17,139 nucleotides of DNA, from the NCBI GenBank assembly GCA_964247135.1, contig CAXTTL010000094.1:1-17139 (forward strand), read 5' to 3'. The position numbers were made by a program, and so were the translations under genes. Positions 1 through 17,139 of this stretch are shown here, one piece after another (position 1 is the stretch's first letter; each line of letters begins with the position of its first letter). The stretch comes from an uncultured Deinococcales bacterium (GTDB lineage: Bacteria > Deinococcota > Deinococci > Deinococcales > JAAFIG01). The notes below the pieces were generated by a model, which saw only the letters and a program-made list of their open reading frames with translations, did not search any database and was not told the origin of the DNA.

Positions 1-789
1 CGCATGAGGCTGCTCGAGAAATGCTTGCACGCACTCGAGCTTCAAACCTGGCACGAGTTTGAGGTGATTGTTGCCGTCGATGGCAGCACGGACGGCACAT
101 TGGCGCTGCTCGAGGCGGTCAAGCACAGAAAGCCTTTTGCCTTGACGGTGCTCTCGCAAACCCAAGCCGGACGTTCCGCCGCCCGCAATGCCGCCATGAA
201 AGCCGCAAGCGGCGAGATATTGCTGCTCTGCGATGACGATTTGCAACTCGATCCCGAAACCCTGGCGCGACACCATGCCTTCCATGAAGTTTTCAAAAAC
301 AATGTTGCGATTGCCGCCGTGCGCTTCCCAGACGGCGTGACGCGCTTTCCGACGCGCCCAGGTTGGATGAATTTCTCGGGTTGCAACGCCAGCCTGCCAA
401 GACTTGCCGCGCTCGAGGTGGGATTGTTCGACGAAAGCCTCGGCGGTTACGGCGGCGAAGACCTCGAGTTTGGTCTGAGGCTCGAGCGGCACGGACTGAA
501 GTTTAAAGCTTTGGCGGATGCGGGCGCATATCACGACGGAACCCGAGTGCCAAATTCTGAAAAAGCCTATTCGGCTGGGAGGCAAGCCGTACAGATTGCC
601 CACAAGTACGGAACGGCGGTGGCATTGCAACTGGGGGTGAACCAAACCCTGCTGACCGCCAAACGCGCGGTCTTAAATCCTATCGGCGATGCGATTTTGG
701 GCAAAGACCCCAATTACGCCTTTGAACGCGTCTACCTGAAGGGTGCTCGAGATGCCTGGAAGGAACTCGAGGAGGCGACTCCACCTTGA
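1..789 (+). CDS. Glycosyltransferase family 2 (GT-A fold), probably 5'-truncated by the window edge
   Basis: FEVIVAVDGSTDGT, GRSAARN, LLLCDDD (DxD), FDESLGGYGGEDLEFGLRL motifs. The frame is open to base 1 and the usual first beta-strand (SVIIPTxN) is missing, so the true start is likely upstream. Confidence 0.9.
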   Translation, partial: RMRLLEKCLHALELQTWHEFEVIVAVDGSTDGTLALLEAVKHRKPFALTVLSQTQAGRSAARNAAMKAASGEILLLCDDDLQLDPETLARHHAFHEVFKNNVAIAAVRFPDGVTRFPTRPGWMNFSGCNASLPRLAALEVGLFDESLGGYGGEDLEFGLRLERHGLKFKALADAGAYHDGTRVPNSEKAYSAGRQAVQIAHKYGTAVALQLGVNQTLLTAKRAVLNPIGDAILGKDPNYAFERVYLKGARDAWKELEEATPP

Positions 790-844
790 TTTCATATCCA
801 GCCAATAGCGTGAATCTAATCTCGAGTGGCAAAAGGAGTTGAAC

Positions 845-1405
845 GTGCAAAGAAACGAACCGATGATTGACGAATCCCAAGACAATCCCGCGCTTGCCAA
901 TGTGATCGAAAAAAACATTCGCACCATGATTGGCTTGCGAATCAAAACCGCCTCCGAGCGCACCATGCAAGACCGCATCGCGGATGGCATCACCGATTTT
1001 GCGGGGCATCTCAAATTCGTTTACATCCACGTCATCTGGTTTGGTGCCTGGATTTTGATCAATACTGGAAAGTTGGGTTTCAAACCCTTTGACCCGTTTC
1101 CGTATGGCTTATTAACCATGATCGTCTCGCTTGAGGCGATTTTTCTATCGACCTTTGTGATGATCTCACAAAATCGCATGAGCGACGACGCCGAACGCCG
1201 CGCCAACCTGCATTTGCATATTGGATTGCTGACCGAACACGAAACCACCCGAATTTTGCAGATGCTCGACGCGATTCAGGATAAGCTTGGCATCGACAAC
1301 GATTCTGACAGCGAACTTGCCGACCTCGAGATGGAAACCAAACCCGAGGACGTGCTTGCCGAGATTGAACGCCTGCAAAAACGTGCAACCCATAAAAAGC
1401 TTTAA
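845..1405 (+). CDS. DUF1003-family membrane protein
   Basis: DRIAD..TDFAG, hydrophobic helix, FDPFPYGLLTMIVSLEAIFLSTFVMISQNR signature. The GTG at 845 is chosen because AAGGAG (833-838) lies 6 nt upstream; alternatives are 839 and 863. Confidence 0.88.
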   Translation: MQRNEPMIDESQDNPALANVIEKNIRTMIGLRIKTASERTMQDRIADGITDFAGHLKFVYIHVIWFGAWILINTGKLGFKPFDPFPYGLLTMIVSLEAIFLSTFVMISQNRMSDDAERRANLHLHIGLLTEHETTRILQMLDAIQDKLGIDNDSDSELADLEMETKPEDVLAEIERLQKRATHKKL

Positions 1406-2031
1406 AACACGCGCAAGTTCATCATCATCACAAAATGCGAGATGCTGCCCGCGATCACAAAACCGTGCCAGATTTCGTGCGCACCAACCAAACCTCTTTT
1501 CGGTTTTCGTGACGCGTAAAACGGCACGCCAAAGGTGTACATCAGACCGCCGATGACCATAGCCACAATCGCGGTCATCGGGAATCTCGAGAGAAACTGT
1601 GGCAGCAAGACCACGCCAAACCAGCCCATTAAAACGTAAAACGTGACCGACAACCACTCTGGCGGCAAGGTCAGGCTTTTGATCAACACGCCAACCAGTG
1701 ACAGCGACCAAATGGCAACCAGCACAATGTCGCGCCAGGGTTGCTCGAGTCCAGTCCAAACAATTGGCGTGTAGGTTCCCGCAATCATCACGTAAATCGC
1801 GGCATGGTCAAAACGTCGTAAGCCCTCCTCGAGTTTTGGGCTGCCTTTGACGCCGTGATGAAGTGCACTTGCCAGGTACACCAGCATCATGCTCGAGCCG
1901 AAAACCAGAAACGCCCAGTGCAAACCGGTTTTCCACGCCAAGATCAGGGTAAAAGCGAACGCCATGAAAAACCCCGCACCGTGGGTCAGGGCGTTGATCG
2001 GTTCGCGTAAAGATTGAAAAAATCGTGCCAC
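1402..2031 (-). CDS. Hemolysin III / PAQR (TrhA-like) membrane protein
   Basis: EPINALTH, SALHH, RRFDHAAIYVMIAGTYTP, YVLMGW, GGLMYTFG, HEIWHGFVIAGSISH motifs; about 7 hydrophobic segments. Its stop overlaps the DUF1003 stop (TTAA). Confidence 0.93.
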   Translation of the reverse strand: MARFFQSLREPINALTHGAGFFMAFAFTLILAWKTGLHWAFLVFGSSMMLVYLASALHHGVKGSPKLEEGLRRFDHAAIYVMIAGTYTPIVWTGLEQPWRDIVLVAIWSLSLVGVLIKSLTLPPEWLSVTFYVLMGWFGVVLLPQFLSRFPMTAIVAMVIGGLMYTFGVPFYASRKPKRGLVGAHEIWHGFVIAGSISHFVMMMNLRVF

Positions 2032-2036
2032 AAGCC

Positions 2037-2042
2037 AGCTTA
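2037..2042 (-). promoter_or_regulatory. Putative -10 (TAAGCT) of a leaderless hemolysin-III transcript
   Basis: TAnnnT 5 nt upstream of the GTG start; no SD sequence. Confidence 0.5.
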
Positions 2043-2118
2043 AAGCGCTTTGATGAGCATTCTCGAGGGTGGGGTTTTGTGCTCAGCTTCCCTGGTTGTG
2101 GTGCTCGAGCTTTCGCGC

Positions 2119-2124
2119 TAGCAT
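2119..2124 (+). promoter_or_regulatory. Putative -10 (TAGCAT) of a leaderless DUF433 transcript
   Basis: TAnnnT 7 nt upstream of ATG 2132. Confidence 0.55.
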
Positions 2125-2131
2125 TAAAGGC

Positions 2132-2413
2132 ATGTCTGATCTGGTCACAGAAAATCATGGTAATGAGCCGTACTCATATTACCCAATGGGCGAATACGTC
2201 GTGCGTGCTCCTGGCATATGCGGCGGCAGACCCACTTTCAAACACACCCGCATCGAAATCACGGGGGCGTTGGCGCGTCTTGCCAGTGGTGAAACGCTCG
2301 AGGCTGTGGTTTCGGGTTATGCAGGACGTGTGACCCGTGAAGCGGTGCTTGAAGCCAGTGAAATCATGGCTCGAGAATTCCTGAGCCATCTGCCAAAACT
2401 ACAAGCCGCGTGA
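2132..2413 (+). CDS. DUF433-family protein (VapB45-like putative antitoxin)
   Basis: PGICGGRPTFKHTRI...LASGETLEAVVSGY...VTREAVLEA is the DUF433 pattern. ATG 2132 is preferred over GTG 2069 because of the -10 element. Confidence 0.88.
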   Translation: MSDLVTENHGNEPYSYYPMGEYVVRAPGICGGRPTFKHTRIEITGALARLASGETLEAVVSGYAGRVTREAVLEASEIMAREFLSHLPKLQAA

Positions 2414-2805
2414 TTGTTCTCGATGAGCAGTTGCTTGGACGCAACCTCGAGCGTCTGATTGGGGCGTGGTATCCAGGCGCGGTGCGGTTTATCACCGAAC
2501 TTCGGGCGGGTACGGTCATCAAAGACGATGCGATTCCTGGTATTTTGCGCCTCGAGCGCGAGGCAACTTTTGTGACCATCAACGAATCTGATTTCTGGGA
2601 GGTGGTGGATATCACCAACGATTTTTGTGTGGTGTGTTTTGCTCTGCCAGATTCGCAAGTTTTGCTTGTTCCAGATTTGTTGCGCCAGGTGCTCAACCAT
2701 CCAAGATTTAGCACCAAAGCTTTGCGAATGGGTTGCGTGATTCGGGTCTCCAAGAACACTTTCTCGTATTACACCGCAAGCCAGCGAACACCTCAAACCC
2801 CATAG
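2410..2805 (+). CDS. PIN-like domain protein (DUF5615/VapC45-like putative toxin)
   Basis: MIVLDEQL start, DDAI, FVTINESDF acidic motifs; GTGA overlap with DUF433, the usual partner arrangement. Confidence 0.72.
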   Translation: MIVLDEQLLGRNLERLIGAWYPGAVRFITELRAGTVIKDDAIPGILRLEREATFVTINESDFWEVVDITNDFCVVCFALPDSQVLLVPDLLRQVLNHPRFSTKALRMGCVIRVSKNTFSYYTASQRTPQTP

Positions 2806-2941
2806 AATTCTGGAAGCTCGAGCCAAACTCAAGTTTGAAACGTTAGACTCGAGAACCTCGTATCTGACTTGAGTTGCTATTCTTGCGCTCGAGAATCGGT
2901 AGAATCTCGAGGCGAGAGAAAATGCCGAAAAAGATGAACCA

Positions 2942-5900
2942 ATGAACACCTGCGCGTACTGCTTGACCCCAATTCCACCTCACGCCAGCAGTTGCGGGTC
3001 GTGCGGAATGCCCGTCGCTGGCGGACTGCATTTGAAAGCAGGAACGACGGTCGGGGCTGGGCGTTACCGTTTGGACGCCGCCCTTGGACGCGGCGGTTTT
3101 GGTCTGACCTACAGGGGCTTTGACCGTCAACAAAACCGTGTGGTCGCCATCAAAGAACTCTTCCTGGACGGTTCGGTGCGCCGTGAAACCAAGGTGATTC
3201 CACCCGGTAGCCTCAAACCAACGGACTTTGATGCAGCTCGGGTTTCGTTTTTGAACGAAGCCCGCACGATGGCAAGATTCTCGCACTCGAGCATCGTGGG
3301 TGTGCTGGACACGTTTGAAGAGAACAACACGGCGTACATGGTCATGGAATTTGTTGAGGGCGAAAGCCTGGGGGATCGTTTGATCCGCAGCAAAACCCTC
3401 GAGCCTGCCGAAGTCGAACGGATCGGCATTGCCGTGAGTGAGGGCTTGGCGATTGTTCACAGCGCGAATTTGCTGCACCGCGACATCAAACCCGACAACA
3501 TTTTGCTGCGCAACGACGGACGCGTGATCTTGATCGATTTTGGTTCGGCACGCGATTTTAGCCTCGGGCAGCAAGTCCAACACACGCGATTGGTCACGCC
3601 AGGTTATGCGCCCCTCGAGCAATACCAAAGCCAAGGACGTTTTGGACCGTACACCGATGTTTACGCGCTCGGGGCGACCCTGTACCACGCCCTGACGGGG
3701 GTTTTGCCAGCCTCGAGTTTGGACCGCGCGGCACTGAGTGTTTCCAAGGGCAACAAAGCCACGCTCGAGTCACCCAGAATCTTGCAACCCAGCGTGTCGG
3801 TGGCGCTCGAAAAAGCGATTTTGTGGGCGCTCGAGATTCGGATCGATGCGCGACCTCAGACGGCGTTGGCATTTCAGGAAGCCTTGCTGGGCAACAAACC
3901 CCGCAAGACGGCGCAAAAACCTGTGGCGGTCAATGTTCCGCTCAGTACGCCAAACCTTGATCTGGCAAAACAAAAACTCATGCTGCTCGAGGATGGTTTA
4001 AAACCCATTTCAAACGTTTGGATTTGTCCATCGTGCCGCACGGGTCAGATGCTCGAGGTGAAACCCTCTGACAACTGTCCAGTCTGTCAAAAACCTGGCA
4101 TGAAATTTCCCGATGCGGCGCAAAAACCGTGCTGCCCAGATTGTGCGCAGCCGAGTTTGGAAATGATGGTCAGTAGCCATTACTCGAGAAGCCATTTTTA
4201 CTTTTATCAACAACTGGGTTTAAACATCAACGAGATCGCGCCTGCCCAAACCCTCCAATGCCCAGCCTGCGAAAAAGGCGAGTTAAAACCGCCCAAACCC
4301 GTGACCAGCCTCATCTGTCCATCTTGCCGAGGTCGGACGCTCGAGAATCGCGTGCCGAACCGCCGACTCTGCCCGCATTGCCGCACCGGAAACCTCGAGG
4401 CGTTCAACACCGATCAGGCGTGCTGCCCGAATTGCAAGGTTGGACGCATCACGCAAACCAGCAAACGCAAATTTGTGTTCATACTCGAGCACCGCGCCAA
4501 TTGCGACCACTGCGACGCGACTTGGGACACGCAAAATTCACACTGGAAATTATTAACAGCCACGGGTGAACTGGCGGACCAAATTGGCTCGAGTCACACC
4601 CCAGAAACTTGGGAAGAGATGTCGGGACGTGAACGAACTGGCGTGGTCTGCAACCATTGTCACAGCGAATTTGACCAGCAAAACGATGGGCGTTTGAAAT
4701 TCGGTTACAGCCTCGAGAAAACCCCATTGCTGCACAAAACCATGACCGCGCTCGAGTGGGCAAAACTCGCGCACCGCATCGCGCCGCACCGTGGCACACA
4801 ACACTGCCCGGATTGCAGCTCCGAATTTGACCTCGACGCCGGCAACATGACCTTGCTCTCGAGTCCTTTATTGCGTGACCAAATCGGTCAAACCCATCCG
4901 CTCGAGGCTTGGAAACGACTGGCGTCGGGCAAACGCAGCATCAACGACGGGGTGCTGTGCGAAACTTGCAACGCCGAATGGGATTGGGTAGGCACCGCAA
5001 ACCTGGGCGAACGAATGCTGAAACTGATTCATGCTGGGCGCAGCCAAAGCCAACTGCCCTTGGGTTTTACGGTCAGCACCGATTACAGCGTCTTCAAAAA
5101 GGCTGGCAAAAACACTGGACTCGAGGGAATGGTCTGCAAAAATTGTGCCTCCGAATGGGACGAAACCGCGCCCAAAGTCTTCACGCAAACCAGGGTGCGC
5201 GGCGCAAAAATGCTGGCAGCCACGCCAAGCATGGGCATTGAACGCCTGCTGGCGCTGGGGCAATCAAAGGCAATGGGACGCAAAACCGCCAGCGTTCCAG
5301 GTCCAACCTGCCCCCACTGCGCCTCGGAATGGGTGGTGCAAGGACAAAACTGGGAACTCGTCTCGAGTTTCAAAAGCGCCCTGGTCGGAATGCAACTTCC
5401 AGCCGAGGCTTGGCGTTACCTGGCGGCGGGCAAACAACACGCCAACGCCGGCGTGAAATGTAACACTTGCGCCACCGAACTTGATCTTAAAAATTCGAGT
5501 TACACGCTTGGGAATGTGAGCCGCAGCAAAGACGATTGGATGCGTTTTGCGATTGGAAAACCACTTGCGGCTGATGTTGCGCAACTCAAACTCGAGGGTG
5601 AACAAGCATTTTTGAAAGCCATCGAAAATGCCGAATGGCAGCAAGTGACATCAGTTTTCCCACGGGTTTTGGGCAAAAACGAAAAAGTGTTGTTTGTGCT
5701 CGAGGCACTCCTTGGTCAAAAAGATGGCTTGGAGTACATCCCAGGAAGTTTAGGACAGGCTTGGTTTACAACCCAACGAATCTTGTTTGAAAATGGCAGT
5801 TTGATTCGAGATGTTGAGATTCTGATTGACAAACTTAATCACATCAATACCACTCACACGTCTTTTTACATTCAAGCAAATAATTACCAAACCCTTTGCC

Positions 5901-6064
5901 GAATTTGGCTCGAGCGCAAGGACCGCAAACGTCCAATCGTGTTGTTCTGCGGCAATTTCGACGTGACACTCTCAAGCGGCGCTGCCAAACTTGAAGTCAG
6001 CATCGGACCAAAGCAACTCGAGCAACTCCTGACAAACTTGCAATCTCGAGTCCTCAACCCGTAA
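2942..6064 (+). CDS. Hanks-type Ser/Thr protein kinase with N-terminal zinc ribbon, 14 C-terminal CxxC motifs and a PH-like C-terminus
   Basis: GRGGFG, VAIKE, HRDIKPDN, DFG, GYAPLE, DVYALG motifs; N-terminal CAYC...CGSC; 14 further CxxC; C-terminal LGKNEKVLF...GQAWFTTQRILF resembles bacterial PH/GRAM-like domains. No signal peptide or TM helix seen. Confidence 0.93.
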   Translation: MNTCAYCLTPIPPHASSCGSCGMPVAGGLHLKAGTTVGAGRYRLDAALGRGGFGLTYRGFDRQQNRVVAIKELFLDGSVRRETKVIPPGSLKPTDFDAARVSFLNEARTMARFSHSSIVGVLDTFEENNTAYMVMEFVEGESLGDRLIRSKTLEPAEVERIGIAVSEGLAIVHSANLLHRDIKPDNILLRNDGRVILIDFGSARDFSLGQQVQHTRLVTPGYAPLEQYQSQGRFGPYTDVYALGATLYHALTGVLPASSLDRAALSVSKGNKATLESPRILQPSVSVALEKAILWALEIRIDARPQTALAFQEALLGNKPRKTAQKPVAVNVPLSTPNLDLAKQKLMLLEDGLKPISNVWICPSCRTGQMLEVKPSDNCPVCQKPGMKFPDAAQKPCCPDCAQPSLEMMVSSHYSRSHFYFYQQLGLNINEIAPAQTLQCPACEKGELKPPKPVTSLICPSCRGRTLENRVPNRRLCPHCRTGNLEAFNTDQACCPNCKVGRITQTSKRKFVFILEHRANCDHCDATWDTQNSHWKLLTATGELADQIGSSHTPETWEEMSGRERTGVVCNHCHSEFDQQNDGRLKFGYSLEKTPLLHKTMTALEWAKLAHRIAPHRGTQHCPDCSSEFDLDAGNMTLLSSPLLRDQIGQTHPLEAWKRLASGKRSINDGVLCETCNAEWDWVGTANLGERMLKLIHAGRSQSQLPLGFTVSTDYSVFKKAGKNTGLEGMVCKNCASEWDETAPKVFTQTRVRGAKMLAATPSMGIERLLALGQSKAMGRKTASVPGPTCPHCASEWVVQGQNWELVSSFKSALVGMQLPAEAWRYLAAGKQHANAGVKCNTCATELDLKNSSYTLGNVSRSKDDWMRFAIGKPLAADVAQLKLEGEQAFLKAIENAEWQQVTSVFPRVLGKNEKVLFVLEALLGQKDGLEYIPGSLGQAWFTTQRILFENGSLIRDVEILIDKLNHINTTHTSFYIQANNYQTLCRIWLERKDRKRPIVLFCGNFDVTLSSGAAKLEVSIGPKQLEQLLTNLQSRVLNP
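4502..5560 (+). repeat. Seven tandem protein repeats of about 50-60 aa (last one shorter) inside the kinase CDS
   Basis: Unit: CxxC-x-[SAT]-[ET]-[WFL]-D ... [WLM]xL ... G.T/S...E.W..LA.GK ... G. Heads are CDHCDATWD, CNHCHSEFD, CPDCSSEFD, CETCNAEWD, CKNCASEWD, CPHCASEWV, CNTCATELD. Confidence 0.85.
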
Positions 6065-6078
6065 AATCTTTGACGTGG

Positions 6079-6084
6079 TAGATT
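6079..6084 (+). promoter_or_regulatory. Putative -10 (TAGATT) of a leaderless fabI transcript
   Basis: TG-n-TAGATT (extended -10), then 6 nt, then ATG 6091; no SD sequence. Confidence 0.65.
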
Positions 6085-6090
6085 GCAAGC

Positions 6091-6882: not shown

Positions 6883-6947
6883 GGGGAACTACTTCCCTCT
6901 CATCCCCGACCCGTCTTGGTTTCAAGATGCACCTGCGGGCGAAACCG

Positions 6948-6975
6948 CTTCTCTCCTCGGAGAGAAGGGAGTTTT
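6948..6975 (+). terminator. Putative intrinsic terminator of fabI, part of a REP-like palindrome
   Basis: CTTCTCTC-ctcg-GAGAGAAG 8-bp stem followed by ggagTTTT. Confidence 0.5.
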
Positions 6976-7032
6976 ATTGCTTTACACGTGCGGCTCGAGG
7001 AATTTTCACTGTCCCAAAGTGAAGTTGCCATG

Positions 7033-7066: not shown

Positions 7067-7090
7067 CTCTTGTTTGATCTTGACTGTGGT

Positions 7091-9713: not shown

Positions 9714-10418
9714 TCAGGTTTTGACCCCCGACTTATCGGAGGACAGGGAAGGTTTTAAGCCAAATGTTTTTTGCGCAAATGCCAAGACTGGATGCGTCCA
9801 AACGCCCTTCACCTGACCGCCCCGCAACGCCGCCAGCAAATCAGCCGCGCCCTCAATAGAACGTTGCGGCGTTTGGACCCAGGCGTCGCCGATGTGCGCC
9901 CCAATGTGCGCGTCCGACCCCGCCGACATGGGCAGACCGCGCGAGTGCGCCCAACGTTCAGCCACCGTATTCCAAGACCGCCTCGAGATGCGGGCGTTGA
10001 ACGTCTCGACAATGTCAATGTCCGCCGCGATCCGCTCGAGCGCCGCCGGCTTTAAGCGGTGCACTTTTAAGGGGTCAAAGCCGTGCGGCAACAAAACCAA
10101 ACCGCCCTGGGCATGAATTTCATTGACCGTTTGTTCTGGGGTCAATCCCGCCGGAATCACGCGCTGAAGGTACAGCCCGATCAGTTCGCCCTCACGGGTC
10201 GAAACCTCTTCACCAACGATGATCTTTAGCGTCGGATGCTGCTCGGTCATGCGCCCAAGTTCGACGGCGCCCCAAATTTGGTTGTGGTCGGTGAGTGCCA
10301 AAACGTTCAGGTGCGTTTGTTCGCAGCGCTCGAGAATCGCCGACAGCGGCGTGCGGCAGTCGTAAGACGCCAAACTGTGACAATGCAAATCGATGCGCAG
10401 GGTCGGCGATTGGCTCAT
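9714..10418 (-). CDS. PHP-domain metal-dependent phosphoesterase
   Basis: DLHCHS, LTDHN, GEEVST, PHGFD, ETFNAR, GSDAH motifs. Confidence 0.92.
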   Translation of the reverse strand: MSQSPTLRIDLHCHSLASYDCRTPLSAILERCEQTHLNVLALTDHNQIWGAVELGRMTEQHPTLKIIVGEEVSTREGELIGLYLQRVIPAGLTPEQTVNEIHAQGGLVLLPHGFDPLKVHRLKPAALERIAADIDIVETFNARISRRSWNTVAERWAHSRGLPMSAGSDAHIGAHIGDAWVQTPQRSIEGAADLLAALRGGQVKGVWTHPVLAFAQKTFGLKPSLSSDKSGVKT

Positions 10419-10484: not shown

Positions 10485-10578
10485 ATCTTACGGCTGGTTG
10501 AGGCTGCGCTGACCCGCACCTGAGTCCTGCAAATCCTGTTCTGAACGGATTTCTCAGCCCATCCTCAGTTTGGCTTCA
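10485..10578. promoter_or_regulatory. Divergent promoter region with a minus-strand -10 (TAAGAT) and two opposed sets of 11-bp-periodic nTCA repeats
   Basis: TGAG/TGAC/TGAG at 10499, 10510, 10521; CTCA/CTCA/TTCA at 10553, 10564, 10575. Confidence 0.45.
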
Positions 10579-10814
10579 GGTACAACAAAAAGTCAATTCA
10601 TAAACTTGAATTCAACTTAAGTCATTTCGGTGTGATGCCCGCCAGCCGTGATTTCAAACAGACCAACATCAAGCCACAATTGCGCAGGAGGAAGACCGTT
10701 GCGTTTGTATGCCCACTTTTACAATACGCACGCTTCCTTCAGCAAGGCTCGAGTGCTCAGGTTTCAAACCAGAAGTTTGGTTGTCACCCATCCTCAACAG
10801 GCAACGGTTAAATC

Positions 10815-11819: not shown

Positions 11820-11876
11820 CCGACTTGCTTTGACCCAGGCTCGAGCGGCATCCAAACGGAAGGGTGGCTGAAGATC

Positions 11877-12806
11877 ATGCGAGCGATTTTGATTTACAAC
11901 CCCAGCGCTGGAGGTCACGCAGGCGTCTCGAGCGAGCAATTGCTGTCCGCCCTTGCCGCCGCCGGTTTTGACGCCGAGCACCGACCAACCGCGTCCGAGG
12001 CGGATTTGGACGGGGCACTCGAGGGCAACCCAGAATTGATCGTGGTGGCTGGCGGCGACGGCACGGTACGGGCGGTCGCGGTGCGCATCGCCGGTCGCGG
12101 GATTCCAATGGCGCTCATTCCGATGGGGACCTCGAACAACATTGCCCATTCGCTCGGGCAGACTGGCAAGCCGCTCGAGCTGTGCGCCAACCTTGCCGCG
12201 CCGCGCAAAACCGTTTTCGACCTCGGGCGGGCGCGAGGAGACTGGGGCGAAACGCTGTTTCTGGAGGCGGTCGGTTGGGGTCTGTTCGCCGAAACCTTGC
12301 TGCGGTACGATCCAGACGCGCCCAAAAGCCCAATTCGCGGCGCCCAGGCGGTGATCGGCGCCCTGGGTCATCTGCGAGCCAAAGATTACCGCCTGGTCAT
12401 CGATGGTCAGCCCCGCGAGGGACGTTACCTGCTGATCGAGGCGATGAACACGCCAATGACCGGCAATTCGATGCGATTGGCGCCAAACGCCAAAACCGAT
12501 GACGGGCTGCTCGAGGTGGTTCTGATCGAAGAGGGCGGACGCGTCGGACTGCTCAACTACCTGATGCACCTGGTCGTCGGCAGGCTCGAGGACATCCCAA
12601 CGGTCAGCGTGGTGCAATGCCGGAGTTTCTCCCTCCAGTGGGATGGTGCTCCCGTTCACCTGGATGCCGAAGTCAAGGGCGAGTTGCTCTCCGAAGACCC
12701 GTCCACTGACAGCATTAAACCCCCAACCAAAATCGATCTTGACCTGCTGCCTGGACGCCTCGAATTCTGGCTGTCGGGCAACACCAAAGCCCCGAACGAA
12801 CCGTGA
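11877..12806 (+). CDS. Diacylglycerol/lipid kinase family protein (YegS/BmrU-like)
   Basis: IYNPSAG, AGGDGT, PMGTSNN, APNAKTDDGLLEV, HLDAE; GAGG-like SD weak. Confidence 0.92.
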   Translation: MRAILIYNPSAGGHAGVSSEQLLSALAAAGFDAEHRPTASEADLDGALEGNPELIVVAGGDGTVRAVAVRIAGRGIPMALIPMGTSNNIAHSLGQTGKPLELCANLAAPRKTVFDLGRARGDWGETLFLEAVGWGLFAETLLRYDPDAPKSPIRGAQAVIGALGHLRAKDYRLVIDGQPREGRYLLIEAMNTPMTGNSMRLAPNAKTDDGLLEVVLIEEGGRVGLLNYLMHLVVGRLEDIPTVSVVQCRSFSLQWDGAPVHLDAEVKGELLSEDPSTDSIKPPTKIDLDLLPGRLEFWLSGNTKAPNEP

Positions 12807-12813
12807 ACAGCCC

Positions 12814-13467
12814 ATGACCGATTCCACACCAAAACCGCTCCCTCGAGCCATGCTGTGGCTGCTGGTGTTGTTCGGTCTGTTGTTGCCGCTGTACGGTTTT
12901 GCGGCACTGGCAGAAGACGTTTGGTTGCACGAGGCATTTTTATGGGATCAACGAATTTTAACCTTGCTGCACGGCTTTCAAACCCCGACCCTGGACCGAG
13001 TGGCGCTCATCGTCACCTTCTTTGGCTCCGGCGGACTGATGGCGCTGCTCGGTGCCGCCTACGCGCTGGTCTTGTGGCGCCGCCACCAACCCACCCGCGC
13101 CCTCTACGTGGCGCTGGGCATCGTCGGGGCGGGCGCACTGGACTTGCTCGCCAAAATCATTTTTCAACGCGTCCGACCCCACCTCTGGGACTCGAGCATC
13201 CGCGAACTCGGCTTCAGTTTCCCGAGCGGTCACGCGATGGGATCGATGGCACTGGTCGCGGTGCTGATCGTTTTAAAATGGCACAGCCCCTGGCGTTGGT
13301 GGACGGTCATTCTGGGCAGCCTGTTCGCGTTAACCATCGGACTCTCGAGGTTGTACCTTGGGGTGCATTACCCCTCTGACGTGCTGGCTGGCTGGGGCGC
13401 CGCGATTGCCTGGGTGACTGGGATCAGCCTGATTTTTCGTCATCTGGGACGGGTGAGGGGCGAATGA
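12814..13467 (+). CDS. PAP2-family membrane phosphatase (undecaprenyl-PP / lipid phosphate phosphatase-like)
   Basis: KIIFQRVRP (C1), SFPSGH (C2), SRLYLGVHYPSD (C3); multiple TM helices. ATG 12814, just after the DAGK stop, is preferred over 12643. Confidence 0.93.
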   Translation: MTDSTPKPLPRAMLWLLVLFGLLLPLYGFAALAEDVWLHEAFLWDQRILTLLHGFQTPTLDRVALIVTFFGSGGLMALLGAAYALVLWRRHQPTRALYVALGIVGAGALDLLAKIIFQRVRPHLWDSSIRELGFSFPSGHAMGSMALVAVLIVLKWHSPWRWWTVILGSLFALTIGLSRLYLGVHYPSDVLAGWGAAIAWVTGISLIFRHLGRVRGE

Positions 13468-14147
13468 ACTTTGGCGGCAACCCAGGGTCGTCACAAGCCT
13501 TGAGTCTCGAGGTTCGCCCCTACGATTCACACGACCGCGCGGCAGTTCGCCAGATTGCCTACCAAACTGCTTTTTTGGGCGATTCGATTGCGCCACTGAT
13601 GCCAGACCCCGAACTGTTTGCCGACCTTTGGACGGCGGTCTACACCGACCTGCATCCCGACTTGGCGCTGGTCGCCACATTGAATCAGAAGACCGTGGGT
13701 TACATCTTTGGGGTCACCGACAGTCGAAGCCTGCCAGCAGATTATTTTCGTCATGTGCTTCCGCTCGTGCTGACCAGGCTGGTTCGCGGCGAATACCCAA
13801 ATTGGCGACCAGCTCTGGCATACCTTTTCAGGGCGGCGCTCGAGCCTTCAACCCACGCCCCGTATCGGCTCTATCCTGCCCATTTGCACATCAACCTGCT
13901 CGAGGTTGCCCGTGGTCACGGCGCGGGACGCGCCCTGCTGGAAGGGTTCTTGGCGCAGTGTCAAGCCAAAGGCGCCCTGGGCGTGCAACTCTCGACCACC
14001 GATCACAACACCGCCGCCGTGCGCTTGTACGAACGCAACGGGTTTACAGTTTACAACTCGAGCCTCATGCGCCTGTATTCGGCTTCGGTGTCGGGTCCAA
14101 TGCGGCGCTTGGTGATGGTACGGGTTTTGGAACGCCAAAAAGCCTGA
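13464..14147 (+). CDS. GNAT-family N-acetyltransferase
   Basis: VGYIFG, AHLHINLL..ARGHGAG acetyl-CoA motif, N.AAVRLYERNGF; ATGA overlap with PAP2. Confidence 0.9.
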   Translation: MNFGGNPGSSQALSLEVRPYDSHDRAAVRQIAYQTAFLGDSIAPLMPDPELFADLWTAVYTDLHPDLALVATLNQKTVGYIFGVTDSRSLPADYFRHVLPLVLTRLVRGEYPNWRPALAYLFRAALEPSTHAPYRLYPAHLHINLLEVARGHGAGRALLEGFLAQCQAKGALGVQLSTTDHNTAAVRLYERNGFTVYNSSLMRLYSASVSGPMRRLVMVRVLERQKA

Positions 14148-14154
14148 TGGGTTG

Positions 14155-14220
14155 AAAATCGCAACTCCATAAAACGCGCTCGACTCGAGCGATGTTTTGT
14201 GACTCGAGGAGTTGCGTCAT
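14155..14220 (-). ncRNA. Candidate hairpin small RNA of about 65 nt (or 5' end of a leaderless 51-aa ORF, 14065-14220)
   Basis: Begins at the predicted TSS. CGCAACTCC/GGAGTTGCG outer stem, AAAAC/GTTTT middle stem, CGCTCGA-n-TCGAGCG apex, then ATTTT. Confidence 0.3.
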
Positions 14221-14226
14221 GGGGTT

Positions 14227-14257
14227 ATTGTAGACGTAAAAAGAGTAAAACTGTCAA
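14227..14257 (-). promoter_or_regulatory. Near-consensus sigma-A promoter TTGACA-N19-TACAAT
   Basis: Minus strand: TTGACA (14257-14252), 19-nt spacer, TACAAT (14232-14227), 6 nt, then ATG at 14220. Confidence 0.6.
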
Positions 14258-14301
14258 CCCCAAAAGGCTGACCGTTTTTGATTATCTCGAGAACCGAGTG
14301 T

Positions 14302-14682
14302 TTAGCGCTCAAGCTTTTGATTCTTGGCGGCAACGTTTCGGAAATGAGACAGGTTGTTTCCTGCCCATGATTTCACGGTTGGAAATTCTACAGCACAAAA
14401 ATCAAGATAGAAAAATGGGTAGAATCCTTCGCCTTGAATATCAGAATCGATCAATTCGATACTTTGTGAGTCAATCCAAACGTGATAACGCAAGTTGTGA
14501 CCAATGACCTCACGAACAATGAAATTCCAAGGAATGCACTCTTTTGCATTGTCTCGGTTGATTTCAAGTTTTGCGCCGCGTGCCGCCGCGATCAATTGTA
14601 TAAATTGATCATTACCACTCACTTCAATTCTGACATCCGAAATCCATTTTTTGTGCCACTTTTTGCGAAGTCGTTTTCGCAT
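14302..14682 (-). CDS. Hypothetical protein, AT-rich, with basic N-terminus
   Basis: 126-aa ORF filling the gap downstream of sucD; MRKRLRKKWHKKW start; no family recognised. Confidence 0.55.
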   Translation of the reverse strand: MRKRLRKKWHKKWISDVRIEVSGNDQFIQLIAAARGAKLEINRDNAKECIPWNFIVREVIGHNLRYHVWIDSQSIELIDSDIQGEGFYPFFYLDFCAVEFPTVKSWAGNNLSHFRNVAAKNQKLER

Positions 14683-14765
14683 ACTTACCGAGTGCTCGAA
14701 TGCTTGAACTCAAAGCATTCCAATTGCGAGAAATAAAGTTCTGAAGCGCTCAAAGTCAGAGTACA

Positions 14766-14802
14766 ACAAAAAACTCGAGCAGAAGAGGTTTTCTGCTCGA
14801 GT
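14766..14802 (-). terminator. Intrinsic terminator of sucCD, built from two CTCGAG sites
   Basis: Perfect 12-bp stem ACTCGAGCAGAA (14773-14784) / TTCTGCTCGAGT (14791-14802), followed on the minus strand by a T-run; 18 nt past the sucD stop. Confidence 0.88.
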
Positions 14803-14820
14803 CTACGGACACCTAAATTC

Positions 14821-15696
14821 TTACAATCCCAAAGTCTTTTTGGTTAACTCTACAATCTGATCCATCGTGTCAGCCACAGGCACATTCGCTTTCGCCATCG
14901 CCTCGAGCTTGCTCTCGGCTGTGCCCACGTTGCCCATGATGAGCGCTCCCGCGTGACCCATGCGTTTGCCTTTTGGTGCGGTGCGTCCCGAAATAAACGC
15001 GATCACGGGTTTTTTCATGTGTTTGCTGATCCATTCGGCTGCCATTTCTTCGTCCGCACCACCAATTTCACCGATCATGACCACGGCATCGGTGTCTGGG
15101 TCTTCGTTGAACATTGGCAAAAGATCAATGAATGTCGTGCCAATAATCGGGTCGCCACCGATGCCGACCACGGTGCTGCATCCAATGCCTGCGGCGGCAA
15201 GCATCGCGCTGGCTTCGTAGGTCAGCGTTCCCGACCTCGAGATCATGCCGACACGTCCTGCTTTAAAGGTGCTGGCTGGCATGATGCCGAGCTTGCACTC
15301 GCCTGGGGTAATCAAACCTGGGCAGTTGCCGCCAATCAAGCGAACGCCTGGGAGTTCTTTGATTTCTTTGACCACGCGCATCATGTCCAGAACGGGCATC
15401 CCCTCGGCAATGTTGATGATGAGCGGAATTCCAGCGTGTGCCGCCTCGAGCGTTGCATCTGGCGCGGCTGCGGGTGGAACAAAAATAATGCTCGCATCAA
15501 TGTCGTGCTTGGCTCGAGCTTCGGTCACAGAGTTGTAAACAGGAATGCCTTGCACGACCTGCCCGCCCTTGCCTGGGGTGCTGCCTGCGACAATTTTCGT
15601 ACCGTACTCGAGCATTTTTTCGGTGTGAAACGCCCCTTCGCGCCCCGTGATGCCTTGCACGAGAACTCGAGTTTCTTTGTTCACGAGGATGCTCAT
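14821..15696 (-). CDS. sucD: Succinyl-CoA synthetase alpha subunit
   Basis: [45 protein letters not shown] (phospho-His); ATGA overlap with sucC. Confidence 0.98.
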
Positions 15697-16838
15697 GCGT
15701 TGCCTCCTGCTGCGTTGACTTCATTGACCAGCGAAGTCGCGGCTTCCATCATGGTTGGGTAAATGTTAATTGGTTTGCCCTCAAGCAACACGTGGGCTTC
15801 TTCGACCGCTGTACCCGCAACGCGCATGGCGACGGGTTTGGTCAGGATGCCTTCCTCGAGACAACGGATGACGCCTTTGGCAACCTCGTCGGCGCGGGTG
15901 ATGCCACCGAAAATGTTGATTAAAACGCCCTTCACGTCTGGGTCTTTGAGCACCAACTTCACAGCGTTGTAAACAATATCGGCTTTTGCACCGCCGCCAA
16001 TGTCCAAGAAATTCGCGGCTTTGCCACCGACTCGAGCGACCACGTCGAGGCTGGTCATGACCAAACCCGCGCCGTTGCCGATCACACCGATGTAACCGTC
16101 CAATTTCACGTAAGCAAAACCGAACGCGCTGGCTTCAACCTCGAGCGGATGTTCAGCCTCGAGTTCACGGTACGCCATTAACTCTGGGTGACGGCTGAGG
16201 GCGTTGTCGTCGAGGTCGATTTTGGCGTCAGCAGCGATGATATCGCCAGCCGTTGTGACCACGAGCGGGTTGATTTCAGCCAATGAAGCATCGACACCCG
16301 CGCAGGTGTTCCACAAACCGACCATCATGCTGGCAATTTTGTTGATGTTGCCCTCGAGTCCCGCTTTCAGTGCCACCTCTCGAGCTTCAAACGGACGCAA
16401 ACCCTTGATCGGGTCAATGGCAAACCGCGTGATGGCGTCGGGGTTGTTCGCAGCGACCTCTTCGATGTCCACGCCACCCTCTTTGGACACCATCAGGGTG
16501 TAAGATTGCACGTTGCGATCCACGATCAGACCGCAGTAATACTCTTTGGCAATGTCCACGGCTTCGGCAACCAGCACCTTCTTGACCGTCAAGCCTTTAA
16601 TGTCCATGCCCAGAATGTCCGAGGCGCGATCAAACGCTTCATTCGCGTCCTTGGCAAGCTTGACGCCGCCCGCCTTGCCGCGACCACCGACATGCACTTG
16701 GGCTTTGATGACCGTCATCTTGCCAACGCTGACCGCAATTGCTTTTGCCTCTTCGGGCGTGAACGCGACCTTGCCCGCAGGCACAGGCACGCCAAAACGC
16801 GCCAGCAATTCTTTCGCTTGATACTCGTGAAGTTTCAC
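15693..16838 (-). CDS. sucC: Succinyl-CoA synthetase beta subunit
   Basis: [57 protein letters not shown] before the GTG start. Confidence 0.98.
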
Positions 16839-16912
16839 GTATCCTCCTTACGCTCGAGCATCCCTCGAACGACCTTGCTGCCAGGGTTTGAAGCCCGAGC
16901 ACAAACTTTCAA

Positions 16913-16918
16913 AGTATA
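16913..16918 (-). promoter_or_regulatory. Putative -10 (TATACT) for sucCD
   Basis: Near-consensus -10 about 75 nt upstream of the sucC start; no clear -35. Confidence 0.4.
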
Positions 16919-17139
16919 CGCTCGAGATTGGGACTGTGCGAGTTGTGCCTAAAGGGGTGACATGATTTGAGCGACAGTATGTGAAGACTTGAGAAAATAT
17001 TTAAACGTAACAACCTTAATAAGAATTAAAACTTGACGAGAGAGCTGTGGTAGATGCAAAATGAGCTAGAAGGTGTTTGAATTGGTTTAGGACGCACTTT
17101 CAGCCAATCGAACCAACATCAACCTCATCATCGCCGCAT

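What the first reader, a model, noticed from the sequence alone, without database searches (positions are those of the whole stretch)
13..16926. CTCGAG is a highly iterated palindrome (about 1 per 145 bp, >20-fold excess): a HIP1/DUS-like genome mark in a Deinococcota-like genome
Seen: about 118 exact CTCGAG sites by hand count (e.g. 13, 34, 109, 412, 463, 481, 746, 766, 821 ... 16853, 16921). At roughly 55% GC only about 5 are expected in 17 kb. Flanking bases vary, so the unit is the 6-mer. About 20 sites fall in roughly 1.75 kb of intergenic DNA, denser than in genes. Established: palindromic 6-mers are normally avoided because of restriction. Strong excess is known for cyanobacterial HIP1 (GCGATCGC, linked to methyltransferases) and for Neisseria/Pasteurellaceae uptake sequences. 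CTCGAG is the XhoI/PaeR7I site and contains the TaqI site TCGA. Inference: an active process creates or keeps these sites, such as an orphan methyltransferase with methyl-directed or very-short-patch repair, self/non-self marking, DNA uptake bias or a nucleoid-binding protein. The responsible gene is not in this window. I cannot check whether this has already been described for this lineage.
Basis: partly seen in the sequence, partly recalled or inferred. Interest (0 to 1): 0.9.

Follow-up and report, generated by a model that had tools for sequence, protein, structure and literature searches.

The report
Hyper-abundant CTCGAG palindrome genome mark
The six-letter palindrome CTCGAG occurs about once every 150 bases throughout this uncultured Deinococcales bacterium and its whole family, a DNA-level mark strong enough to rewrite protein sequences and closest in kind to the still-unexplained HIP1 repeats of cyanobacteria.

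Summary
The window holds 118 CTCGAG sites where 3.5 are expected. The genome holds 33,925, one per 150 bp and 25-fold over expectation; CTCGAG is its commonest hexamer and occurs on all 386 contigs.

All 16 genomes examined from the same uncultured Deinococcales family have 4.3-6.8 sites/kb. So does one genome of another family, while its genus-mate has 0.3/kb.

The excess survives a protein-preserving synonymous shuffle about 7-fold. It is denser in non-coding DNA, at 34-fold. It has reshaped the proteome: Leu-Glu is the most over-represented dipeptide, and 77% of Leu-Glu pairs are spelled CTCGAG.

Sites are independent words with near-random spacing. They are conserved well above control hexamers, including in intergenic DNA. 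Each lineage keeps gaining new ones, sometimes by amino-acid replacement.

I found no XhoI-type nuclease, no Vsr, and no DNA methyltransferase shared across the family. So this is a HIP1-like mark, but not demonstrably methylase-linked.

The most likely cause is a fixation bias from sequence-biased DNA uptake or recombination. The reading protein is unknown. I found no prior description.

The parts
13..16926 (.). Array of 118 independent CTCGAG sites: 97 in or touching genes and 21 wholly intergenic by my own gene model. Mean genome-wide spacing is 148 bp.
   Evidence: Spacing is near-geometric genome-wide (CV 0.96). There is no conserved extended flank.
15693..16838 (-). sucC (succinate-CoA ligase beta subunit), carrying 6 sites. 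Used as a marker to compare site positions across the family and outgroups.
   Evidence: NF001913, 481 bits; 11 distinct site columns among 14 genomes, shared by 0 to 9 of the 11 family genomes.
14821..15696 (-). sucD (succinate-CoA ligase alpha subunit), carrying 6 sites.
   Evidence: NF004230, 413 bits.
15607..15612 (-). Site encoding Leu-Glu in sucD. It is CTCGAG in 11 of 13 family genomes and CTCGAA in the other two. The three outgroups have Gln-Lys, Lys-Glu and Ile-Lys, so an amino-acid replacement created the site.
   Evidence: sucD column 84. I mapped the coordinate from the gene offset.
15666..15671 (-). Site found only in this genome. Thr-Arg-Val is spelled ACT CGA GTx here; the site-aligned hexamer in the same-genus genomes G001 and G002 reads CCAGGG, encoding the same peptide. 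This is a recent synonymous gain.
   Evidence: sucD column 25.
16158..16163 (-). Site encoding Leu-Glu in sucC in genera g1 and g4 only. Six of the seven other family genomes and one outgroup have Val-Glu; the seventh (G012) has Thr-Glu. A lineage-specific replacement to Leu made the site.
   Evidence: sucC column 681.
16031..16036 (-). Site in frame GCT-CGA-G (Ala-Arg-Val) in genus g1. Six family genomes of genera g3 and g5 (among them the unnumbered MAG L001) carry a CTCGAG 2 bp away in another frame (Val-Ser-Arg). Outgroups have Asn or Gln here. These are independent solutions at one spot.
   Evidence: sucC columns 809 and 811.
14902..14907 (-). Site encoding Leu-Glu in sucD in 12 of 13 family genomes. 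Outgroups have Leu-Lys or Leu-Ala.
   Evidence: sucD column 846. The coordinate is mapped from the gene offset after allowing for alignment gaps.

Best explanation
What it is (shown): CTCGAG is a genuine, lineage-wide, hyper-abundant palindrome. Each site is an independent 6-bp word made in place by point substitutions. It is not a copy of a mobile repeat, and it is not a by-product of codon or peptide usage. A fixation bias acting on the DNA favours gaining the word and opposes losing it. The bias is strong enough to fill 42-77% of all synonymous opportunities and to drive amino-acid replacements.

How it most likely works (inferred): a symmetric, probably dimeric, protein reads CTCGAG plus weak flanks during a DNA transaction that decides which allele is passed on. 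The best candidate transaction is preferential uptake or recombination of kin DNA carrying the word. That would be the 'molecular drive' described for Haemophilus USS and Neisseria DUS (recalled from my own knowledge), and a role in transformation is now suggested for HIP1. Fragments carrying the word would then replace alleles lacking it. Long-resident DNA would fill with sites while newly acquired DNA stays poor in them. The determinant appears able to switch on or off within a genus. Methylation may be involved but is not shown. The core claim (a real DNA-level mark kept by a fixation bias) I hold at about 0.9. The confidence below is for the uptake/recombination mechanism.
For: Excess: 118 observed against 3.46 expected in the window. 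33,925 sites genome-wide, O/E 24.8, the commonest hexamer. Every one of 386 contigs has 2.56/kb or more.

Acts on DNA: a synonymous shuffle that keeps each protein and each gene's codon usage gives about 4,040 sites against 28,884 observed. Intergenic O/E is 34.4. All three reading frames are used: 18,080, 4,220 and 6,584.

Proteome effect: 23,487 Leu-Glu dipeptides against 10,041 expected, while Glu-Leu is at 10,099; 77% of Leu-Glu pairs are spelled CTCGAG. Outside sites, CTC is only 15% of Leu codons and GAG 32% of Glu codons.

Independent words: spacing is near-geometric, and one-off variants are not enriched (O/E 0.08-1.74).

Protein-like footprint: symmetric flank preferences persist in intergenic DNA, with A at -3 in 44% and T at +3 in 43%, G at -1 in 35% and C at +1 in 36%.

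Fixation bias: against a same-genus genome (312,689 aligned bp, 85.1% identity), 1,699 of 2,204 sites are conserved (77%) against 43% for phase-matched control hexamers. In intergenic DNA it is 134 of 207 (65%) against 38%. There are 505 and 304 lineage-private sites (the smaller window sample agrees).

Continuing lineage-specific gains, including amino-acid replacements.

Resident versus foreign DNA: most of the 40 longest of 64 site-free gaps over 1.1 kb are below 46% GC (several are 27-40%). Of 10 genes taken from such gaps, some encode a TraG/VirB4-type conjugation ATPase, a reverse-transcriptase-protease fusion, an O-antigen ligase and an eCIS-core protein.

Competence core genes: ComEC in 14 of 15 and DprA in 14 of 15 family genomes.

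Analogy: methylated HIP1 raises natural transformation in Synechococcus (bioRxiv 10.1101/2024.09.10.611283, abstract read). A 2026 paper proposes HIP1 as a kin-DNA uptake watermark (PMC13756078, passages read).
Against: No reader protein was identified. No uptake or recombination bias can be shown with these tools.

ComEC and DprA are present in most bacteria, so finding them is only a failure to refute.

Known uptake sequences (as I recall them) are 9-12 bases, non-palindromic and about 1 per kb. Here the word is a 6-bp palindrome at 6.7 per kb.

One-off variants are not enriched; I recall that imperfect USS copies are common in Haemophilus.

Selection for a function and a neutral drive predict the same conservation and gain patterns, so searches do not separate them.

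Flank preferences differ between CTCGAG-rich lineages, so there may be several readers.

My gene model is home-made. The foreign-DNA reading of site-poor islands rests on GC and on 10 annotated genes, of which about half are clearly accessory or mobile.
Confidence: 0.4

Rival explanations
1. Methylation-coupled repair bias, as in Elhai's HIP1 model. A CTCGAG-specific, possibly orphan, methyltransferase marks the sites, and a methyl-directed nick or very-short-patch-type repair converts near-cognate sequences into sites or protects sites from loss.
For: In cyanobacteria each HIP variant co-occurs with a methyltransferase of matching specificity (PMC4390886, abstract and passages read). The genomes carry several DNA methyltransferases, and different enzymes could share one specificity. 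The symmetric flank footprint fits a type II enzyme. Some CTCGAG-enriched genomes outside the family do carry the Eco57I/TaqI_C-type methylase found beside an XhoI-family nuclease: g31 3 of 3, g14 3 of 3, g12 5 of 22.
Against: The XhoI nuclease family is in 0 of 11 family genomes. The N6_N4 methylase found beside XhoI nucleases is in 0 of 11 at E<=1e-20. The Eco57I/TaqI_C type gives only 26%-identity hits in 2 of 11. Three G000 methylases tested one by one are not family-wide: orthologs (50% identity or more) of the first in G002, G007 and G013, of the second in G001, G002 and G007, and matches to the third in 6 of 15 genomes. An inventory of four Pfam methylase families in five further family genomes from five genera, with G000's own candidates and the Dam-class locus of three genomes added, gave no orthogroup in more than 3 of 6 genomes. 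The one-contig genome G011 has no N6_N4 enzyme and G008 has no C5 enzyme. G000 has no Vsr (the genome is 84% complete). The one-step partners of gained or lost sites are the three transition classes in equal numbers (122, 121, 110), with no cytosine hotspot. Caveats: these are incomplete MAGs, only five Pfam families were searched, and m6A or m4C would leave no mutational trace.
Confidence: 0.25
2. Direct selection for a function of the sites in the cell. Candidates are an abundant nucleoid or chromosome-organising protein that binds CTCGAG, or an orientation-free, Chi-like 'self' signal that stops a nuclease or defence system from degrading the cell's own DNA.
For: Sites are conserved above control words even in intergenic DNA. 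Site density across most of the genome varies little (5-kb windows average 33.2 sites, sd 8.0). There is a symmetric footprint. Putative foreign DNA lacks the mark. The genome otherwise shows extreme palindrome avoidance, implying heavy nuclease pressure. Kamoku and Nielsen suggest a Chi-like role for HIP1 (abstract). Xu et al. argue for a chromosome-structure role of HIP1 (PMC5861425, passages read).
Against: No candidate binding protein or nuclease was found. Spacing is not more even than random (CV 0.96; 5-kb windows are over-dispersed), so there is no sign of selection for regular spacing. Kilobase-scale periodicity could not be tested on a fragmented MAG. A 20- to 37-fold difference between two genomes with the same genus label is hard to square with an essential architectural role.
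Confidence: 0.2
3. An RNA-level signal. CUCGAG in transcripts would be the selected word, for example as a target or anti-target of a sequence-specific endoribonuclease. A palindrome places the word in RNA whichever strand is transcribed.
For: Only the logical point that a palindrome appears in transcripts of either strand, plus a mild density peak 0-50 bp after stop codons (10-12/kb).
Against: Density is highest in intergenic DNA overall. All three reading frames are used. The profile across genes and flanks is flat. No RNA data were available.
Confidence: 0.03
4. No special process. The excess is a by-product of base composition, codon or dipeptide usage, or an artefact of assembly, binning or library construction.
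For: A maximal-order Markov model gives O/E of only 1.24, but that is because the 5-mers CTCGA and TCGAG are themselves carried by the 6-mer. In high-GC relatives CTC and GAG are presumably favoured codons (my own knowledge, not measured here), and moderate enrichment there (about 1/kb in genus g9, similar to the reversed word) probably is codon-driven.
Against: Dinucleotide shuffles, the protein-preserving synonymous shuffle, intergenic O/E of 34 and the reversed word GAGCTC at 0 copies all reject a compositional cause. All 386 contigs and 15 further independent assemblies, among them a one-contig genome, show the excess, which rejects an artefact.
Confidence: 0.01

Closest known systems
HIP1 (GCGATCGC) and the alternate highly iterated palindromes of cyanobacteria (Elhai 2015, PMC4390886; Xu et al. 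2018, PMC5861425)
   Same: Both are short GC-rich palindromes tens of times over-represented, in coding and non-coding DNA alike, independent of codon usage, and more conserved between related genomes than control words. Both are lineage-wide with exceptional genomes that lack them, and both vary in flanking extension between lineages. Neither has an established function.
   Different: The phylum differs (Deinococcota, not Cyanobacteria). The word is a 6-mer, not an 8-mer. Absolute density is higher: about 6,660 per Mb, against 300-2,700 per Mb quoted for HIP1. No co-distributed cognate methyltransferase was found, which is the main correlate of cyanobacterial HIPs. I saw no Leu-Glu-scale proteome effect in the HIP1 passages I read. 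Kilobase-scale periodicity was not tested here.
DNA uptake sequences (Haemophilus USS, Neisseria DUS) and their accumulation by molecular drive (recalled from my own knowledge; no paper read here)
   Same: A lineage-specific short word spreads through resident DNA, into genes in whichever frames tolerate it, and shapes peptide content. It is scarce in recently acquired DNA. Core competence genes are present.
   Different: USS and DUS are 9-12 bases, asymmetric and about 1 per kb. Here the word is a 6-bp palindrome at 6.7 per kb with no enrichment of imperfect copies. No uptake bias has been shown for any member of this family.
XhoI/PaeR7I-type restriction-modification target (CTCGAG)
   Same: The word is identical. 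XhoI-family nucleases with adjacent methylases do occur in the phylum, in 4 of 301 genomes.
   Different: Restriction targets are normally avoided; here the word is 25-fold enriched. The nuclease family was found in none of 11 family genomes, and orthologs of its partner methylases are missing from the family.
Chi sites (recombination hotspots that mark self DNA for RecBCD/AddAB; recalled)
   Same: Over-represented short words that could distinguish resident from foreign DNA during DNA processing.
   Different: Chi is asymmetric, orientation-biased with replication, and far rarer (about 1 per 4-5 kb in E. coli, as I recall). Nothing here links CTCGAG to a helicase-nuclease.
Dispersed repeats (REP, MITE-type elements)
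   Same: High copy number.
   Different: There is no conserved sequence beyond the 6-mer. The sites lie inside ordinary genes in all frames, and spacing is near-random. The window does hold a true dispersed repeat at 6886-7020, which is a separate thing.

Membership tests
Highly iterated palindromes (HIP1 type) | A short palindromic word over-represented at least 15-fold across the whole genome | tested here: met
   O/E 24.8 genome-wide, 34.4 in intergenic DNA, on all 386 contigs.
Highly iterated palindromes (HIP1 type) | The excess is independent of codon and peptide usage and is present in non-coding DNA | tested here: met
   The synonymous shuffle gives about 4,040 against 28,884 observed. 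Non-coding density is 7.10/kb against 6.59/kb coding.
Highly iterated palindromes (HIP1 type) | Sites are more conserved between related genomes than control words | tested here: met
   77% against 43% in coding DNA and 65% against 38% in intergenic DNA, over 2,204 sites. The window sample agrees.
Highly iterated palindromes (HIP1 type) | A methyltransferase of matching specificity is co-distributed with the word | tested here: not met
   No methylase orthogroup occurs in more than 3 of 6 family genomes. Orthologs of the XhoI-partner methylases are missing from the family. Caveats: incomplete MAGs, five Pfam families only, and non-orthologous enzymes could share the specificity.
Highly iterated palindromes (HIP1 type) | Sites are methylated in vivo | not testable with these tools
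   No methylome data were available. The only indirect evidence is the lack of a cytosine-deamination signature.
Highly iterated palindromes (HIP1 type) | Quasi-periodic distribution over tens of kilobases | not tested
   The longest contig of G000 is 116 kb. The one-contig relative could not be downloaded whole.
DNA uptake sequences (USS/DUS) | Preferential uptake of DNA carrying the word | not testable with these tools
   This needs transformation or uptake assays.
DNA uptake sequences (USS/DUS) | Competence machinery is present | tested here: met
   ComEC (PF03772) in 14 of 15 and DprA (PF02481) in 14 of 15 family genomes. This is weak evidence because the genes are widespread.
DNA uptake sequences (USS/DUS) | An asymmetric 9-12-base word at about 1 per kb, often in inverted pairs at terminators | tested here: not met
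   The word is a 6-bp palindrome at 6.7/kb. There is only a mild excess 0-50 bp after stop codons.
DNA uptake sequences (USS/DUS) | The word shapes peptide content and is scarce in recently acquired DNA | tested here: met
   Leu-Glu O/E is 2.34. Site-free gaps are mostly below the genome's GC, several at 27-40%, and hold accessory genes.
XhoI/PaeR7I restriction-modification system | A cognate nuclease is present and the word is avoided or protected | tested here: not met
   PF04555 is in 0 of 11 family genomes, and the word is enriched, not avoided.
Dispersed repeat element (REP/MITE) | Copies share sequence beyond the core | tested here: not met
   Information content outside the 6-mer is at most 0.12 bit per position.

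The most novel reading that the evidence does not exclude
CTCGAG marks a sequence-directed allele-conversion system not yet described in Deinococcota. It needs no dedicated conserved methyltransferase, can switch on or off within a genus (7.0-7.5 against 0.2-0.3 sites/kb in two genomes with the same genus label and similar GC), and acts as a kin-DNA watermark in naturally transformable, probably multi-copy genomes. Its drive would be strong enough to roughly double the Leu-Glu content of the proteome. That would make iterated palindromes a general, convergent feature of bacterial genome biology rather than a cyanobacterial oddity, and would provide a second, independent system for finding the mechanism.
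Probability: 0.3. Interest if true: 0.9.

Novelty: new variant of a known kind. Interest (0 to 1): 0.8.

Why it matters
Highly iterated palindromes have been known in cyanobacteria for some thirty years, and their mechanism is still not agreed. An independent case helps in four ways.

- It shows the phenomenon is convergent: a different phylum, a different word, and no obvious cognate methylase.
- It comes with natural contrasts suited to finding the determinant by comparative genomics. These are a whole family at 4.3-6.8 sites/kb, intermediate lineages at 2-3.6/kb, and two genomes of one genus label that differ more than 20-fold.
- It is an unusually clear example of a DNA-level pressure rewriting proteins. 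There are about 13,400 more Leu-Glu dipeptides than expected, roughly 3 per gene, including in central-metabolism enzymes.
- It has practical uses. The word is a strong compositional signature for binning and for spotting foreign DNA in these genomes. XhoI would cut such DNA into fragments of about 150 bp unless it is modified.

Tried and rejected
- No 16S rRNA gene was found in the MAG, so rRNA could not be examined for sites.
- The look-up of sequencing runs: the first request was one base too long. The corrected request listed only three holders with small shares (0.05-0.07) and no RNA holder. I did not lay reads, so I have no read-level confirmation, polymorphism data or expression data.
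Some high-GC viral contigs have 4-7 sites/kb, and five of them have no GAGCTC. None resembles the 52% GC family, and the sample is biased by the pattern itself, so I draw no conclusion about phages of this family.
- I tried to separate 'faster gain' from 'slower loss' using the equilibrium counts of one-off variants. Both models predict one-off O/E near 1 by detailed balance, so the counts cannot tell them apart. This was my own reasoning, not a tool result.
- Methylase candidates tested and rejected as family-wide: C36 N6_N4, C178 C5, C320 Dam-class, the N6_N4 partner of XhoI and the Eco57I/TaqI_C partner of XhoI.
- Not tested for family-wide presence: the MmeI-like enzymes on C21 and C192, the methylase of the NotI-like pair on C207, and the C4 466-aa protein. 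These entered only the six-genome clustering. That clustering placed the C207 methylase in 2 genomes (G000, G009), the C4 protein in 2 (G000, G005) and the type I HsdM on C169 in 3 (G000, G005, G011).
- Literature: searches found no paper linking CTCGAG over-representation to Deinococcota or to iterated palindromes. The library holds open-access papers and bioRxiv only, and supplementary tables (for example of methylome surveys) were closed and may bear on this.
- G249 as a mis-binned member of the window's family: its sampled contigs align to G000 over only 11% of their length, like other non-family genomes at 9-18% and unlike a same-genus genome at 74%. The sample is only 20.6 kb, and the family label is the tool's own.

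Full report
**1. The observation**

Dinucleotide-preserving shuffles give a mean of 3.46 and a maximum of 10. Window GC is 55.3% and the reversed word GAGCTC is absent.

The window is contig C94 of a 5.09-Mb, 386-contig assembly, G000, with 52.7% GC and 84% estimated completeness. Genome-wide there are 33,925 sites, one per 150 bp and about 4% of all bases. That is 24.8 times the base-composition expectation, and CTCGAG is the most abundant of all hexamers. A maximal-order Markov model gives only 1.24, but that is because the 5-mers CTCGA and TCGAG are themselves carried by the 6-mer. Every contig has at least 2.56 sites/kb, with a median of 6.8.

Flanks are weak: G at -1 in 39%, C at +1 in 38%, A at -3 in 37%. 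The unit is therefore the 6-mer.

**2. The organism, and how far the trait extends**

The closest named records by SucC are MAGs titled 'Deinococcales bacterium' at 84% amino-acid identity, one of them titled as a chromosome (OZ252252.1). A Thermaceae MAG is next at 73%.

I examined 16 genomes of the window's family, labelled f1 by the tool, across five genera and including G000. All have 4.3-6.8 sites/kb (genome sizes are rounded by the tool). GAGCTC occurs 0-25 times in most of them.

I also counted the 6-mer in 301 genomes of the phylum. One of these, G261, is unpublished, and no claim here rests on it.

| Group | Genomes | CTCGAG per kb |
|---|---|---|
| f1 | 11 in this draw | 4.3-6.7 |
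| g7 (family f3) | 100 | 0.27 or less |
| g9 (family f5) | 31 | 0.6-1.6, close to the reversed word |
| g12-g14 (f5), G192 (f3), G019 (f4), several f2 genera | various | 2-3.6 |
| G249 (f3, genus g36) | 1 | 7.0 |
| G193 (also g36) | 1 | 0.3 |

Sampled contigs confirm the g36 contrast at similar GC. G249 has 7.5/kb (O/E 28.6, GC 51.9%) and G193 has 0.20/kb (O/E 0.8, GC 50.6%). G249 contigs align to G000 over only 11% of their length, against 74% for a same-genus genome, so G249 is not a close relative of the window's genome.

The trait is therefore universal in the window's family, graded and patchy elsewhere in the phylum, and apparently able to change within a genus.

**3. Not codons, not peptides, not a repeat element**

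I built a self-trained gene model: 4,544 genes covering 86% of the genome. It is home-made, which is a limitation.

- Coding density is 6.59/kb. Non-coding density is 7.10/kb even though non-coding GC is only 46%. Intergenic O/E is 34.4.
- Shuffling synonymous codons within each gene keeps every protein and each gene's codon usage. It gives about 4,040 sites against 28,884 observed, a 7-fold excess. The null is conservative, because the codon usage it preserves already includes the sites.
- All three frames are used: CTC|GAG 18,080, xCT|CGA|Gxx 4,220, and xxC|TCG|AGx 6,584. One search gives the correct frame labels; the printed legend had the last two swapped.
- 77% of all Leu-Glu dipeptides are spelled CTCGAG. 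42% of [S/P/T/A]-Arg-[V/A/D/E/G] tripeptides and 49% of [codon ending in C]-Ser-[Ser/Arg] opportunities contain the word.
- Outside sites, CTC is only 15% of Leu codons and GAG 32% of Glu codons.
- Leu-Glu is the most over-represented dipeptide, at 23,487 against 10,041 expected (O/E 2.34). Glu-Leu is at expectation, 10,099.
- Spacing between sites is near-geometric (mean 148 bp, CV 0.96), with a 3-bp ripple from coding. Spacings below 15 bp are depleted. A spacing of 6 never occurs, since it would create GAGCTC.
- One-off variants are not enriched, with O/E 0.08-1.74.
- 62% of all TCGA tetramers lie inside CTCGAG. The remaining 20,685 match my own base-composition estimate of about 19,800 (for the counts).

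**4. Signs of a protein-sized reader**

In 4,217 sites with fully intergenic flanks, the symmetric preferences persist. A at -3 is 44% and T at +3 is 43%. G at -1 is 35% and C at +1 is 36%. G at -4 is 31%. This looks like a symmetric footprint of 12-14 bp and cannot be a codon effect.

Density is flat across gene starts and ends. There are mild peaks 0-50 bp after stop codons (10-12/kb) and 25-50 bp before start codons (9.5/kb).

Other CTCGAG-rich lineages have different flanks. G249 prefers C or G at -1, and G192 has C at -1 in 65% of flanks. The core is shared, but the extended recognition is not.

**5. Evolutionary dynamics**

I aligned 312,689 bp between G000 and the same-genus genome G005, at 85.1% identity.

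| DNA class | Sites conserved | Phase-matched control hexamers conserved |
|---|---|---|
| All sites | 1,699 of 2,204 (77%) | 43% (coding controls) |
| Intergenic | 134 of 207 (65%) | 38% |

There are 505 sites private to G000 and 304 private to G005. The smaller window sample agrees: 34-60 conserved sites against 22-33 expected in five same-genus genomes.

In a codon alignment of sucC and sucD from up to 13 family genomes and three outgroups, sites are shared by anything from 0 to 12 family genomes.

- There are species-specific synonymous gains (window 15666).
- There are gains by amino-acid replacement. Leu-Glu in the family replaces Gln-Lys, Lys-Glu or Ile-Lys in the outgroups at 15607. 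A Val to Leu change made the site at 16158. A Lys to Arg change made another.
- In one case, two lineages built a site 2 bp apart in different frames through different residues (16031).

The pressure is therefore ongoing in each lineage and can override protein conservatism.

tRNA genes hold 10 sites in 5.1 kb, where 34 would be expected at the genome average. Strongly constrained sequence resists the word but is not immune.

Most of the 40 longest of the 64 site-free gaps over 1.1 kb are below 46% GC, and several are 27-40%. Ten genes taken from such gaps include a TraG/VirB4-type conjugation ATPase, a reverse-transcriptase-protease fusion, an O-antigen ligase, an eCIS-core protein and STAND-type ATPases. 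They also include ordinary enzymes and one protein with no match. This fits recently acquired DNA that has not yet gained sites, but it is only partial support.

**6. The search for an enzyme**

- G000 has no XhoI-family nuclease and no Vsr.
- Its DNA methylases are: an NgoPII-type pair, a methylase with a NotI-like nuclease, two MmeI-like enzymes, a type I HsdM, an N6_N4 enzyme, a C5 enzyme, a Dam-class enzyme and a few partial ones.
- The three most plausible candidates are not family-wide.
- Across 301 phylum genomes, XhoI-family nucleases occur in 4 and in no family member. They sit beside either a 340-aa N6_N4 methylase or a 452-aa Eco57I/TaqI_C methylase.
- Homologs of the N6_N4 type are in 36 of 301 genomes, but in 0 of 11 family genomes.
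- Homologs of the Eco57I/TaqI_C type are in 20 of 301 genomes. The family has only 26%-identity hits, in 2 of 11 genomes.
- I inventoried four Pfam methylase families in five further family genomes from five genera, and clustered the hits together with G000's own methylase candidates and the Dam-class locus of three genomes. No orthogroup occurs in more than 3 of 6 genomes. The one-contig genome G011 has no N6_N4 enzyme and G008 has no C5 enzyme.
- The one-step partners of gained or lost sites are the three transition classes in equal numbers (122, 121, 110), with 9-23 for each transversion class. There is no cytosine-deamination hotspot of the kind 5-methylcytosine would leave.

The defining correlate of cyanobacterial HIPs, a co-distributed cognate methylase, was therefore not found. 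It is not excluded, because these are incomplete MAGs, only five families were searched, and non-orthologous enzymes could share one specificity.

**7. Mechanism**

What is shown: a fixation bias acts on the DNA word itself, in all sequence classes, continuously, and in every lineage of the family.

What is inferred: the transaction that produces the bias. I favour sequence-biased uptake or recombination of kin DNA (confidence 0.4). It is the one mechanism I know of (recalled, for USS and DUS) that spreads a short word through resident DNA, shapes peptides and spares new DNA. ComEC and DprA are present in 14 of 15 family genomes each. Recent work ties HIP1 to methylation-dependent transformation and proposes a kin-DNA watermark.

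The rivals are methylation-coupled repair bias (0.25), direct selection for a DNA-binding or self-recognition function (0.2), an RNA-level signal (0.03), and composition or artefact (0.01, refuted).

Selection and neutral drive predict the same comparative patterns, so the present data cannot separate them.

**8. Comparison with what is known, and novelty**

The closest known kind is the HIP family of cyanobacteria. Three of the features I listed for it are met: hyper-abundance, independence from codon usage, and excess conservation. One is not met: the co-distributed methylase. Two could not be tested: methylation in vivo and periodicity.

It works like an uptake sequence in its genomic consequences, but it fails the form criteria of asymmetry, length and density.

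Five literature searches and the passages I read in four HIP1 papers contain no mention of CTCGAG enrichment or of iterated palindromes in Deinococcota. The library is open-access only and supplements were closed.

I classify the finding as a new variant of a known kind, with high interest. It offers an independent system, with built-in natural contrasts, for an old open question.

Noticed in passing
whole genome G000 (window included): Extreme general avoidance of palindromic hexamers. Of the 64 palindromic hexamers, 28 have O/E below 0.1: the 27 so listed plus GAGCTC, whose 0 copies come. Examples: GGATCC 7 copies, CGGCCG 3, GGGCCC 1, AGGCCT 4, in 5.09 Mb. CTCGAG is the lone, huge exception.
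   Followed up: partly
window 6886-7020: A dispersed repeat of about 110-135 bp, between fabI and the next gene. G000 holds 34 copies at 70-100% identity, and further copies occur in other genomes of the family. It is unrelated to the CTCGAG sites apart from carrying one.
   Followed up: partly
phylum genomes of genus g9 (e.g. G016, G020): The 8-mer GCTCGAGC is almost absent (2-56 copies) although CTCGAG itself is at about 1,500-2,800 copies. In addition, 23 of 31 of these genomes carry a close homolog of the N6_N4 methylase that sits beside XhoI-family nucleases. This may indicate a restriction system with a longer specificity.
   Followed up: no
G000 contigs C14 (about 36040-37933) and C207 (3-1647): An NgoPII-type nuclease with a C5 methylase, and a NotI-like nuclease with an N6_N4 methylase. 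These could account for the near-absence of GGCC-containing palindromes.
   Followed up: no
G192 (L368-L370) and G249 (L363-L367): CTCGAG-rich genomes outside the family have other flank preferences. G192 has C at -1 in 65% of flanks (so CCTCGAGG), and G249 has C or G at -1. This suggests different readers or independent origins.
   Followed up: partly
G000 contig C4 51606-53231 (L337): A reverse transcriptase fused to a trypsin-like protease, in a site-free island of 35% GC. It looks like a defence-associated reverse transcriptase.
   Followed up: no
G000 tRNA genes: 16 of the genome's 131 TTCGAA words lie in tRNA genes. This shows how thoroughly that palindrome has been purged elsewhere.
   Followed up: no
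viral contigs L325, L228, L284, L237, L290: High-GC (58-69%) viral contigs with 4-6 CTCGAG per kb and no GAGCTC. They share the two-word signature seen in CTCGAG-rich Deinococcales, but their hosts are unknown and the scan was truncated.
   Followed up: no
window 2942-6064 (+): A 1,040-aa protein with an N-terminal Ser/Thr kinase domain (best NCBIfam match PknB-like, 168 bits, below its cut-off) and a long uncharacterised C-terminal part.
   Followed up: no
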